Shown piece after piece: positions 1 to 3,000 of a stretch of 64,000 nt of DNA (its first letter is position 1; every line of letters starts with the position of its first letter). The stretch lies in contig JANJGN010000023.1 of assembly GCA_026770705.1 (NCBI GenBank), positions 10,044,001-10,108,000 of the forward strand, in the 5' to 3' direction. A program made the position numbers. This DNA comes from Isurus oxyrinchus. Taxonomy: Eukaryota.

Positions 1-3000
1 CCAGGGTGATTGTTTGTGCAGTCGGCGGATATGATCAATCGTTTTATTTCAATTCACCGTTTTACAAATGCCGAGAAGTTCAAAAGTGCAAAACGAAACA
101 TTGCGGGAAGCTGCAATATTAAAATGTTTTAATTTGATCACATTGTTCAGCATGGAATATAATGTAATCTTTTTGTGCTTTGAAGAAAAATAAACGATTG
201 TGAACCACCCCAAATGCACATTAGAGTTTCTCTTTTGCTTTCTTCACCTTTAATGTGTTGCTGTATGAGGAGCTGCCGTGAGACACGGGCTAATATCCAC
301 AGTGAACTTTGCAGCATTGCTGGGCGGTGCTGAACTTACACCCGTGACCATGAACCGAGCGCCGACAGAGAGTTCTGTGTGTTTCAGGCAATGACTCCTG
401 GCTGCCGGATGTAAATAGCGCCGAGCAGCCGAGCGATGCTGTCATGGAACTTTATTCCTAACAGCACAGGGGCTCTACCCCACCACGCGGATTGCAGTGG
501 TTCAAGAATGCTGCTCACCAGCACCTTCTGAAAGGCAACTAGGGATGGGCAATAAATGCCGGCCCAACCCGCGTAGCCCAAATCCGATAGACGAATAAAA
601 AAATGTTCACATGAATCAGTAAGCTTCAGGGAAACTCCCTCACACTGTCTGCTTCTTAATGTCATCAGAGATTACTGATGAACTAGCAACCTTGTACAGA
701 ACTGCTTGCTTCACATCCTGCCTCTTTCACTGCTTCGTGCCAAACTGCATTTCAGAATGAAGGCACATCCTCTTGTATTCCGGAGGGATGTTTATTCTGT
801 TGTGATTTCTTGGTCTGACTAAATAAGTTCAAAACTTTAGGCAGCGCCATGGAGACCAAACGCACCCAAGCAAAATACACCGGATGCTGGAAATCTGAAC
901 AAAAGCCGTAAAAGAAGGAAATTCGCAGCATCTATGAAGACAAAAACATGGATTCATTCAAGTCAACGAACTTTCATTCTGTTTATCGGCGGAGTATCCG
1001 CCCCGAGCCGCCGAACAATGCTGCAATGTTCCGTGAGGATATGAGTCACTGACATTCAGCAGTTCCTCACACACCAACATATTTAATCTGACGAGCGACT
1101 TCATCCTCCACTGAGCTGGCGCCCCTCCTTGTGTTTGTGGTGAGAGCTGGAACTGCAGCTGTAGAGTAGAGCGGGATCAGCAATGCTGCCGGATCTGAGC
1201 GGAAACCTGCCCTGGTTTGTAAACCTCTTGTGGACCATTGTGAGAAAGAAGGGAGATGGAAAGGCGGTTTCCTCCAGTCCAGCTCTTGTGATCGATGGAG
1301 GCAGAAATAGCAGCGTTAACATTAACATTCAGCAAGTTATCATTAAAATCCCTACAATGAAATATGTTTTGATAACCCAAATTATAACCATAAAGTCATC
1401 AAAATCTGCTGATCAACCGGCAAACTCGTACAGAAGCGCCTGCTTCACAGCCTGACTCTTTTACTGACCCGTGCCAAGCTGCATTTCAGAATAAAGCCAC
1501 GTCCTCTTGTATCCCGGCTGGCTGATTATTCTGTTGTATTTTATGGGTCAGTTTCCTGGGTGTCAGTTCTCTGTACTTCTGGGTGGTGATTTCCAGCCCT
1601 GCAACATGACTCAACTTAGCGACAGCAGCGGTTCCAGGTCCCAGCACGAACACAACCACAGAAGCAGCGCAGGAGAAGTGGGAGACTCTCCTTTAATCCA
1701 TTTGATATGTTTCTGTGTGAGGAGCTGCTGAGTGTCGCTGACTCATATCCTCACTGAACATTTGCAGCATTAGTCGGCAGCTCGGCGCTGCTGAATTTAC
1801 AGCCCCGGCCACGAACCGAGCCCAGAGAGAGTGAAATATGTTTTGTGTGTTTCAGGCAATGACTCCTGGCCAGTCAGCAGCAGAGAGGCGGAGGTTGGTT
1901 CAGTGGGAAAAACGCTGCTTGAAACTTTGGTTGAGGAAAATTCCTCGTTTTATTTAACCTCAGTACTGAACTCCTCCTCAGAGCTGTTTATGTTCATGCG
2001 GCGCGATTTTCCTTTTGAAATCGGCTGGCTCAATCGCATCCAATCTACATCTCGTCACCTTTTAAGCGTTGGCAGCGGCTGGAGAAAAAAAAAGACACAA
2101 ATTTCACTCATTATCTGTTCCTCTGAGACCTCCGTCTTCACCGAAACTGAGAAATGTATTTTTTAGACGTCCGTCGGGAAAATGTGTTGTCCAAATCAAA
2201 AAGGACACCATAATTTCTAAATTTTAGACATTGCCATGGAGACCAGACGCGCCCAAGAAAAATACACCGGATGTTGGAAATCTGAAATAAAACAGAAAAT
2301 ACGCAGCATCTATGAAAACTAAAAATTAGAATCTCTCAGTTCAATGATATTTTATTCTGTTCATCGGCGGAATATCTGCCCCGAGCCGCCGAACAATGCT
2401 GCAATGTTCAGTGTGGCTATGAGTCAGTGACATTCAGCATTTCCTCACACACCAACCTATTAAAACCGAGGAGAGACTTCATCCTCTACTGAGCTGGCGA
2501 CGCTGCTTGTGCTTGTGGTGAGAGCAGGAACTGCAGCTGTAGAGCAGAGCGGGATCAGCAATGCTGCCGGATCTAAGCGGATACCTGTCCTGGTTTGTAA
2601 ACCTCTTGTGGACCTTTGTGAGAAAGAAGGGAGATGGAAACGCGGACTCCTCCAGTCCAGCTCTTGTGATCGGTGGAGGCAGAAATAGCAGCGTTAGCAT
2701 TCAGAATGTTTTGATTAAAATTCCTACAATTAAATATGTTTTGATATTCCAAATTATAATCATAAATGTCATCAAAATCTGCTGATCAACCCGCAAACTC
2801 ATGCAGAACTGCCTGCTTCACATCCTGCCTCTTTCACTGACTCGTACCAAGCTGCATTTCAGAATGACGCCACATCCTCTTGTATCCCGGCTAGCTGATT
2901 ATTCTGTTGTATTTCATGGGTCTGTTTCCTGGGTGTCAGTTCTCTGTACATCTGGGTGGTGATTTCCAGCCCTGCAACATGACTCAACTTAGCTACAGCA

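What the first reader, a model, noticed from the sequence alone, without database searches (positions are those of the whole stretch)
1003..1785. Every satellite monomer hides a long inverted repeat, making the array a chain of foldback/MITE-like units
Seen: the left arm (1003-1164) and right arm (1620-1785) are reverse complements around a ~455-bp spacer. The outer 80 bp are ~90% identical (72/80 by hand) and the inner half is more diverged. The pattern recurs in all 32 A monomers and in partial form in all 14 B monomers, giving alternating L,R,L,R arms over 64 kb. Inference: the satellite may derive from a TIR/foldback element, since the best-conserved parts are the outer termini. A transcript from either strand would fold into ~80-160-bp dsRNA stems, which are substrates for Dicer or ADAR, so this could be a hairpin-RNA/endo-siRNA array. 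ssDNA could also pair L with either neighbouring R. Dyad-rich satellites have been proposed to mark centromeres lacking CENP-B boxes.
Basis: partly seen in the sequence, partly recalled or inferred. Interest (0 to 1): 0.75.

Follow-up and report, generated by a model that had tools for sequence, protein, structure and literature searches.

The report
Decayed inverted repeat inside satellite monomers
Each 1.4-kb unit of this long tandem repeat does carry two inverted arms of about 160 bases, but the arms drift apart independently, so they look like an inherited relic and not a working hairpin device.

Summary
The window is one non-coding tandem array with 32 A monomers (about 1.39 kb), 13 complete B monomers and one truncated B. 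In 32 of 32 A monomers an L arm (consensus 1-162) is the reverse complement of an R arm (618-782). Identity is 71.5-77% per monomer, about 89% in the outer 80 bp and 62-73% in the inner half. In 13 of 13 complete B monomers only the outer 77-89 bp survives.

A transcript of either strand is predicted to fold L onto R (z about -10, against -1.5 for the rest of the monomer).

Nothing shows that pairing is maintained:
- 0 of 135 stem pairs carry a compensatory change.
- L:R complementarity within a monomer (74.7%) equals that between different monomers (74.8%).
- Variants mostly break pairs.
- The L arm is the most variable part of the monomer.

The recurrence in every monomer is inheritance from one founder unit, not independent evidence.

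There is no convincing target-site duplication, no transposase remnant and no subrepeats in the arms, so a transposon origin stays open. Short dyads are not enriched in A.

Best reading: a neutral relic inverted repeat copied along by array amplification. Small-RNA output, genomic location and dispersed copies could not be tested.

The parts
1..64000 (+). Head-to-tail tandem array: 32 A monomers, 13 complete B monomers, 1 truncated B (1-1002). No N, GC about 0.45.
1003..1164 (+). L arm of the reference A monomer (consensus A 1-162)
1165..1619 (+). Spacer of about 455 bp between the arms. It holds a 96-codon open frame that evolves neutrally.
1620..1785 (+). R arm, the reverse complement of L (consensus A 618-782). 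Its outer half is the least variable part of the monomer.
1786..2380 (+). Rest of the A monomer, about 600 bp, with no unusual folding (z -1.5)
5144..6539 (+). Example B monomer. Its head (about the first 350 bp, including a full L arm) is about 97% identical to A. The remainder is rearranged and 76-82% like A.
5775..5863 (+). Only the outer R arm is retained in B (consensus B 632-720 against 7-95, 76%).
5844..5984 (.). Secondary small inverted repeat in B (consensus B 701-747 against about 790-841). It runs past the R terminus into the flank.
25370..25555 (+). 186-bp unrelated insert replacing 13 bp, about 10 bp outside the R arm. Present in 4 of 32 A monomers (starts 24585, 27515, 40179, 43109).
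19027..50212 (+). Two copies of a 15.6-kb block of 11 monomers (19027-34620 and 34621-50212), 99.76% identical

Best explanation
The inverted repeat is an old structural relic of the founder unit of a non-coding macrosatellite. A segment of about 165 bp came to lie in both orientations about 455 bp apart, either by an inverted duplication or as the two ends of a transposon-like insert. This happened before the A and B monomer types split. The 1.39-kb unit that contained it was then multiplied by unequal exchange and later by duplication of multi-monomer blocks, so every monomer inherited the same, already mismatched arms. Today the two arms accumulate substitutions independently and nothing in the sequence preserves their pairing.

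Shown: the anatomy, the inheritance pattern and the lack of covariation. Inferred: the neutral status and the order of events. If the array is transcribed, an imperfect hairpin of about 130 pairs per monomer would form as a by-product (predicted only). At the DNA level, a 455-bp spacer and about 25% arm divergence put the repeat in the class that is ordinarily stable.
For: 1. All A monomers share the same mismatches. Consensus complementarity is 128 of 164 (78.0%), while individual monomers average 74.7%, so later changes erode pairing.
2. Relative to the consensus pair, 236 cells at 53 pair positions break a pair and 62 cells at 9 positions gain one. That is 9 of 25 variable mismatched positions, about the 1/3 expected at random. 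No double change keeps a pair.
3. The count of structure pairs on 32 A monomers (31 distinct rows): 0 of 135 pairs changed on both sides, and 43 pairs depart only by unpaired cells. The covariation score is 0.012 against a shuffle mean of 0.013, with 495 of 500 shuffles at least as high.
4. Within-monomer L:R complementarity is 74.69%, against 74.77% between monomers and 74.36% for the adjacent R, so there is no arm-to-arm homogenisation within a unit.
5. The arms are not protected. Diversity among A monomers is 0.074 and 0.069 in L, against 0.050 for the whole monomer (R is 0.041 and 0.030).
6. B monomers keep only 77-89 bp of the repeat (13 of 13) and fold with z only -3.9.
7. The unit is non-coding:
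   - No Rfam family reached its gathering score over the whole window. At E up to 1, 1-12000 gave none and 24585-26141 gave two weak matches far below threshold.
   - No tRNA.
   - 0 of 12 and then 0 of 51 open frames reached a Pfam cut-off; 5 of the 51 had weak hits at E 0.011-0.18.
   - No homologues for two frames.
   - The two long frames show synonymous, non-synonymous and stop variants at random expectation.
8. Distance and divergence between inverted repeats lower their ability to cause rearrangements. In yeast, heterology beyond 25% suppressed instability even in single-stranded DNA (abstract of PMC10164571).
Against: - The outer halves of the arms are significantly more alike than the inner halves (71/80 against 57/84, p = 0.0013). 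A single inverted duplication followed by uniform decay does not predict this. It needs a second event (conversion of the outer part) or arms that were unequal from the start, as in transposon ends.
- L is closer to the R arm of A (88.75% over 80) than to the R arm of B (81% over 74). This could mean past L-R exchange in the A lineage.
- The R outer half is the least variable part of the monomer (0.030).
- Monomers are only about 5% apart and related by recent duplication, so the power to see covariation is limited.
- Absence of selection on pairing does not exclude incidental dsRNA production.
Confidence: 0.65

Rival explanations
1. Origin as a mobile element. The L-spacer-R block (782 bp) is a non-autonomous TIR transposon (MITE-like or foldback-like) that inserted into the founder unit, and the arms are its terminal inverted repeats. 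This concerns origin and is compatible with neutral decay afterwards.
For: - The block is small and non-coding.
- The outer ends are sharply bounded: the flanks outside the arms do not align (295 of 1000 shuffles score as well).
- The termini are better matched than the inner parts (Fisher p = 0.0013), as is usual for long TIRs (general knowledge).
- Satellites born from transposons are well documented (titles and abstracts of PMC5932611, PMC12628747 and PMC4079207, listed).
Against: - No convincing target-site duplication. The best match is a 3-mer across 19 tried offsets, which is expected by chance.
- No transposase remnant.
- No tandem subrepeats in the arms, unlike classical foldback elements.
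- In B a further small inverted repeat runs across the R 'terminus' into the flank. Inverted duplication therefore happens here without regard to that end.
- No copy outside the tandem register exists in the 64 kb.
Confidence: 0.3
2. A selected hairpin-RNA (endo-siRNA) or dsRNA-producing array. Each monomer is a hairpin unit whose stem is processed by Dicer or edited by ADAR.
For: - Predicted long-range stems on both strands, z about -10.
- 131 and 130 L:R pairs in a two-monomer fold.
- Tandem clusters of hairpin-RNA units are known in Drosophila (passages of PMC10317233).
Against: - No covariation or concerted change.
- The stems are imperfect. The longest perfect Watson-Crick run is 13-19 bp (median 17), or 26-28 with G-U pairs. 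The Drosophila cluster cited has near-perfect arms.
- The arms show no homology to any protein-coding target.
- B units have lost half the stem.
- The L arm is the most variable region.
Confidence: 0.07
3. A DNA-level structural role. The arms extrude cruciforms or fold back in single-stranded DNA, and thereby mark centromeric chromatin or drive array recombination.
For: - Single-stranded DNA folding gives z = -8.0.
- Intra-monomer long dyads are discussed as possible (peri)centromeric features in Tribolium (Discussion passage of PMC13081366).
- B monomers show an excess of short dyads (41 against 26.6 +/- 5.1, 0 of 200 shuffles as high).
Against: - The A monomer has no excess of short dyads. 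With stems of at least 5 it has 30 against 25.9 +/- 4.8 (45 of 200 shuffles as high); with stems of at least 6 it has 4 against 6.8.
- A 455-bp spacer and about 25% divergence weaken structure formation (abstract of PMC10164571).
- Structural breakpoints do not cluster at arm ends. 2 of 6 indels of at least 4 bp among A monomers lie within 15 bp of an arm end. Adding six A/B homology breaks gives 3 of 12. My hand binomial estimates are about 0.09 and 0.08.
Confidence: 0.05

Closest known systems
Satellites with long intra-monomeric inverted segments: Tribolium brevicornis 1061-bp satellite (about 470-bp inverted segments), T. madens TmSat2 (about 300 bp), Trichogramma brassicae 385-bp satellite (80-bp inverted repeats). 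All as described in the Discussion of PMC13081366. The original papers were not read.
   Same: A tandem non-coding array in which every monomer carries two inverted segments able to form a monomer-scale hairpin. The function is unproven there too.
   Different: Here the arms take up only about 24% of the monomer, lie 455 bp apart and are about 25% diverged. A second monomer type has lost half of the repeat. The genomic location and the organism are unknown.
Transposon-derived satellites, e.g. the Tetris foldback element of Drosophila virilis (PMC4079207) and tandem arrays from double insertions (PMC5932611). Only titles and abstract openings were seen.
   Same: Inverted-repeat-bearing sequence amplified into tandem arrays.
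   Different: In Tetris the satellite is reported to come from tandem repeats inside the TIRs (title and abstract). Here the arms have no subrepeats, and the repeating unit is the arms plus spacer plus about 600 bp of other sequence. No mobile copies were seen.
Drosophila hairpin-RNA (hpRNA) loci and clusters (passages of PMC10317233)
   Same: Inverted-repeat units, sometimes in tandem clusters, whose transcripts fold back.
   Different: hpRNAs are defined by Dicer-2-dependent small RNAs of about 21 nt and by arms homologous to target genes, with highly duplexed stems. Here the stems are 75% complementary, no target homology was found, and there are no small-RNA data.
Short-dyad centromeric satellites (Kasinathan and Henikoff, PMC5889037; abstract opening seen)
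   Same: Satellite DNA with dyad symmetry.
   Different: That proposal concerns dyads under 10 bp. The A monomer shows no excess of these. The feature here is one long, widely spaced repeat.

Membership tests
Satellite DNA with intra-monomeric long inverted repeats | Head-to-tail tandem array of a defined monomer | tested here: met
   45 monomer starts at 1359-1557-bp spacing. A copies are 95% alike and B copies 97.7% alike.
Satellite DNA with intra-monomeric long inverted repeats | Two inverted segments inside each monomer | tested here: met
   32 of 32 A monomers (157-173 columns) and 13 of 13 complete B monomers (77-89 columns). Consensus E 2e-32.
Satellite DNA with intra-monomeric long inverted repeats | Non-coding | tested here: met
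   No Rfam, tRNA or Pfam match above threshold. No protein homologues. The open frames evolve neutrally.
Satellite DNA with intra-monomeric long inverted repeats | High genomic abundance and heterochromatic or (peri)centromeric location | not testable with these tools
   Only this 64-kb window is available.
MITE / non-autonomous TIR transposon | Terminal inverted repeats bounding a short non-coding element | tested here: met
   162-bp arms bound a 782-bp block. The outer boundary is sharp.
MITE / non-autonomous TIR transposon | Target-site duplication directly flanking the repeats | tested here: not met
   The best result is a 3-mer (CTG/CTG) over 19 offsets. For k = 5-10 the best is 4/5 to 6/10 matches. 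Decay may have erased a real one.
MITE / non-autonomous TIR transposon | Many dispersed copies at unrelated sites | not testable with these tools
   No eukaryotic genome or repeat library is on hand. All copies in the window are in tandem register. An exact 24-mer was absent from the prokaryotic genome-contig collection.
Foldback (FB-type) element | Long arms built of short tandem subrepeats, variable in length | tested here: not met
   TRF found 0 arrays. Consensus self-comparison shows no internal direct repeats. Arm length is uniform.
hpRNA / endo-siRNA locus | Transcript folds into a long duplex | tested here: inconclusive
   A stem is predicted, but it is only 74.7% Watson-Crick and its longest perfect run has a median of 17 bp. 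Transcription is unknown.
hpRNA / endo-siRNA locus | Dicer-dependent small RNAs of about 21 nt from the arms | not testable with these tools
   No expression data.
hpRNA / endo-siRNA locus | Arms homologous to a target gene | tested here: inconclusive
   The frames across the arms have no Pfam match. The 72-aa frame spanning L has no homologue. Only protein-level homology was tested, and only in the size range searched.
Structured RNA under selection | Compensatory substitutions keep the pairs | tested here: not met
   0 of 135 pairs. The covariation score is not above shuffles.
Short-dyad centromeric satellite (Kasinathan-Henikoff sense) | Excess of dyad symmetries under 10 bp | tested here: not met
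   A: 30 against 25.9 +/- 4.8 for stems of at least 5; 4 against 6.8 for stems of at least 6. B shows an excess only for stems of at least 5 (41 against 26.6, 0 of 200 shuffles as high).
Short-dyad centromeric satellite (Kasinathan-Henikoff sense) | Occupied by the centromeric histone | not testable with these tools
   No chromatin data.

The most novel reading that the evidence does not exclude
The array is transcribed in the germline, and each monomer's imperfect hairpin of about 130 pairs feeds a small-RNA or RNA-editing pathway. That would make this a macrosatellite-scale hairpin-RNA cluster, with more than 45 units in 64 kb, outside the few Drosophila cases. The better-preserved outer 80 bp would be the productive duplex, kept alike by occasional arm-to-arm conversion and not by compensatory substitution.
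Probability: 0.07. Interest if true: 0.7.

Novelty: new member of a known kind. Interest (0 to 1): 0.25.

Why it matters
If the relic reading holds, the finding is a tidy but ordinary example of how one structural accident in a founder unit is copied through a whole satellite array. It is also a caution that recurrence across monomers is not independent evidence of function.

It would matter more if the arms proved to be a small-RNA source, or if dispersed copies showed a mobile-element origin. The array would then be a datable case of a transposon turning into a macrosatellite, with an A/B split, a 97%-identical exchanged head tract and a 99.76%-identical 15.6-kb block duplication as time marks.

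Tried and rejected
- Tandem Repeats Finder returned nothing, because the period exceeds its 500-bp limit. I used k-mer spacing and BLAST instead.
- The repeat finder failed on a mistyped reference. I did not repeat it, since BLAST gave the same information.
- RNA genes: no Rfam family at gathering score over the whole window. At E up to 1, 1-12000 gave none, and 24585-26141 gave two weak chance-level matches at E 0.51 and 0.69, far below gathering. No tRNA.
- Coding: 0 of 12 frames had any Pfam match. Of 51 further frames, 5 had sub-threshold matches (E 0.011-0.18, none transposon-related) and 46 had none. No homologue was found for the 123-aa frame or the 72-aa frame across L; only near-length proteins were searched. 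The two frames open in 27 and 25 of 32 A monomers at 80 aa or more show random synonymous, non-synonymous and stop variant counts.
- Identification through print: five conserved 16-21-mers matched 0 papers.
- Elsewhere: an exact 24-mer of the R arm had 0 matches in genome contigs, which holds prokaryotes only. No eukaryotic genome or transposon library was available.
- Extending the repeat outward or inward past the arms: not significant (295/1000 and 922/1000 shuffles as good).
- Breakpoints clustering at arm ends: not significant (plus hand estimate).
- CpG-driven decay: variant alleles per position are 31/94 in CpG against 332/1295 elsewhere, a slight difference only.
- No supplementary files of papers were consulted.
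Full report
**What the window is.** The 64 kb contain no N and have an even GC of about 0.45. They are a single head-to-tail tandem array. K-mer spacing peaks at 1383-1389 bp and at sums of monomer lengths. BLAST of one unit (1003-2387) against the window, plus mapping of its first 388 bp, gives 45 monomer starts and a truncated unit at 1-1002.
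- 32 units are type A: 1372-1390 bp, with four of 1557 bp.
- 13 units are complete type B: 1394-1397 bp.
- The truncated first unit is B.

A copies are on average 95.0% identical and B copies 97.7%. A block of 11 monomers (19027-34620) is repeated at 34621-50212 with 99.76% identity. The organism is unknown.

**The observation.** The inverted repeat is real and lies where stated.
- In the reference monomer, 1003-1162 matches the reverse complement of 1622-1785 at 73.9% over 165 columns (E 6e-22). That is 122 of 165 overall and 70 of 81 in the outer part.
- In consensus A, positions 1-162 match 782-618 at 77.1% over 166 columns (E 2e-32).
- Complementarity by quarters from the outside is 90%, 87.5%, 61.5% and 73.3%. 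The outer/inner contrast (71/80 against 57/84) has Fisher p = 0.0013.
- All 32 of 32 A monomers carry it (71.5-77.0% over 157-173 columns).
- All 13 of 13 complete B monomers carry only an outer piece (72.4-80.5% over 77-89 columns). The truncated B shows just its R piece at 241-327.

Folding gives the following.
- 1003-1785 as RNA: z = -9.9 (+ strand) and -10.1 (- strand), with 0 of 20 shuffles as good.
- The same stretch as single-stranded DNA: z = -8.0.
- The remaining about 600 bp of the monomer: z = -1.5, with 7 of 100 shuffles as good.
- The B unit: z = -3.9.
- A two-monomer RNA (1003-3770): each L pairs with its own R, 131 and 130 pairs.

L is just as complementary to the neighbouring R (74.4%) as to its own (74.7%).

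It fails in four ways.
1. On an alignment of the 32 A units (31 distinct rows) with the L:R pairing written as 135 pairs:
   - 0 pairs have a change on both sides.
   - 12 pairs vary on one side only while still pairing, and 43 depart only by unpaired cells.
   - The covariation score is 0.012 against a shuffle mean of 0.013, with 495 of 500 shuffles at least as high.
2. The complementarity of an L arm with the R arm of the same monomer (74.69%) is no higher than with R arms of other monomers (74.77%).
3. The consensus is more complementary (128 of 164, 78.0%) than individual monomers, so later changes erode pairing.
   - 236 cells at 53 pair positions break a consensus pair.
   - 62 cells at 9 positions create one. 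That is 9 of 25 variable mismatched positions, close to the one-third expected at random.
   - No double change preserves a pair.
4. The arms are not specially conserved among monomers. Diversity is 0.074 and 0.069 in the two halves of L, 0.041 and 0.030 in R, and 0.050 overall.

The stems are also imperfect. The longest perfect Watson-Crick run per monomer is 13-19 bp (median 17). With G-U pairs the median is 26-28. One limitation is that monomers differ by only about 5% and share recent ancestry, so the power to detect covariation is modest.

**History.** A and B share a head tract of about 350 bp at about 97% identity. It begins within about 15 bp of the outer end of L. Elsewhere they are 76-82% alike and rearranged: A 390-547 corresponds to B 1052-1209, A 699-867 to B 643-796, and A 1219-1389 to B 1217-1396.

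B also holds an L-like fragment at consensus B 815-840 (81% to L 1-26). It has a small secondary inverted repeat, consensus B 701-747 against about 790-841 (score 18; shuffles 8.4 +/- 1.5, maximum 15 of 300). This repeat runs across the R terminus into its flank.

Because B keeps the outer R arm in the same context as A, the repeat predates the A/B split. Its overall divergence (about 22-26%) is of the same order as the A/B divergence and several-fold larger than the divergence among monomers. My inferred order of events is:
1. The inverted repeat forms.
2. A and B split.
3. The head tract is exchanged between A and B.
4. Present-day homogenisation takes place.
5. The 15.6-kb block is duplicated.

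The array therefore amplified an already degenerate repeat. Its presence in all 46 units is inheritance, not repeated evidence.

**Origin.**

For a transposon origin:
- The block is short and non-coding.
- The outer boundary is sharp: flanks do not align, with 295 of 1000 shuffles as good.
- The ends are better matched than the interior.

Against it, or neutral:
- There is no convincing target-site duplication. The best is a 3-mer over 19 offsets.
- There is no transposase trace in 63 frames. 0 of 12 frames had any Pfam match, and 5 of 51 had sub-threshold, unrelated matches.
- There are no subrepeats in the arms.
- B carries an independent inverted duplication that ignores the putative terminus.

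Dispersed copies could not be sought. I put a mobile-element origin at about 0.3 and leave the rest to an inverted duplication with a later event in the outer half.

**Other readings.** Nothing coding or RNA-gene-like is present. The two frames that stay open in most A monomers (27 and 25 of 32 at 80 aa or more) have variant classes at random expectation:
- 18 synonymous, 47 non-synonymous and 1 stop, against 17.4, 46.0 and 2.6 expected.
- 27, 76 and 2, against 26.2, 74.0 and 4.8 expected.

Short dyads (loop of at most 20) are not enriched in A. With stems of at least 5 there are 30 against 25.9 +/- 4.8, with 45 of 200 shuffles as high; with stems of at least 6 there are 4 against 6.8. They are enriched in B only for stems of at least 5 (41 against 26.6 +/- 5.1, 0 of 200).

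Indels of at least 4 bp among A monomers (6 events) and A/B homology breaks do not cluster significantly at arm ends (hand binomial about 0.08-0.09).

**Comparison with what is known.** The Discussion of PMC13081366 calls long dyad symmetries within satellite monomers 'not so common' and lists three examples:
- T. madens TmSat2, with inverted segments of about 300 bp.
- A 385-bp Trichogramma satellite, with 80-bp inverted repeats.
- The 1061-bp T. brevicornis satellite, with inverted segments of about 470 bp.

I did not read the original papers. This array fits that kind, but its arms are shorter, farther apart and more decayed.

Hairpin-RNA loci, including tandem clusters, are defined by Dicer-2-dependent small RNAs of about 21 nt and by arms homologous to targets (passages of PMC10317233). 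None of that could be tested or found here. Distance and divergence between inverted repeats reduce their instability, and heterology beyond 25% suppresses it even in single-stranded DNA (abstract of PMC10164571). This is consistent with such a repeat being tolerated. No paper held any of five conserved k-mers of the monomer, so I could not tie the satellite to a described family. Supplementary files were not consulted.

**Verdict.** The feature is best read as a neutral relic inverted repeat carried along by satellite amplification, and so as a new member of a known kind. The hairpin-RNA reading remains possible but has no positive support from the sequence.

Noticed in passing
window 19027-34620 and 34621-50212: An 11-monomer, 15.6-kb block is duplicated in tandem at 99.76% identity (33 mismatches, 4 gaps). 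This is a very recent higher-order amplification step on top of the A/B pattern.
   Followed up: partly
B monomers, e.g. window 5144-6539: B looks like a rearranged or deleted derivative of about two old units. It has an A-like head (about 97% over about 350 bp, starting at the L outer end), two stretches with no A counterpart (consensus B 391-642 and 797-1051), and A-like pieces in a different order at 76-82% identity.
   Followed up: partly
window 25370-25555, and the same place in the monomers starting at 27515, 40179 and 43109: A 186-bp stretch unrelated to the rest of the array replaces 13 bp about 10 bp outside the R arm in 4 of 32 A monomers. It has no Pfam or Rfam match. I could not tell whether it is an insertion or ancestral sequence lost elsewhere.
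   Followed up: partly
consensus A 172-188; monomers starting at 26142, 29072, 41736 and 44666: A 17-bp deletion just inside the L arm, flanked by a short direct repeat (GGATC), as expected from replication slippage.
   Followed up: no
window 1165-1452 (+) and 1795-2163 (+), and the equivalents in other A monomers: Two frames of 96 and 110-127 codons stay open in 27 and 25 of 32 A monomers. Each starts right after an arm. They have no homologues and show random synonymous, non-synonymous and stop variant counts, so they are not genes.
   Followed up: yes
consensus A 11-29 (e.g. window 1013-1031) and 31-68: The outer arm contains its own small dyads: a 19-bp near-palindrome (16 of 19 self-complementary), and a nested hairpin with stems of 7 and 5 bp, seen by eye. 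They are duplicated in R because R is a copy.
   Followed up: partly
whole window: CpG observed/expected is 0.69 and TpG+CpA is 1.27, so CpG depletion is moderate. Variant density at CpG positions (31/94) is only slightly above that at other positions (332/1295).
   Followed up: no
consensus A 1-7; monomers starting at 13463, 26142, 29072, 41736, 44666, 58534 and 62705: A variant junction: 7 of 32 A monomers have different first 7 bases at the L outer end (TCGAAA[G/T/C] instead of CCGAGCC). This removes pairs at the very tip of the stem.
   Followed up: no
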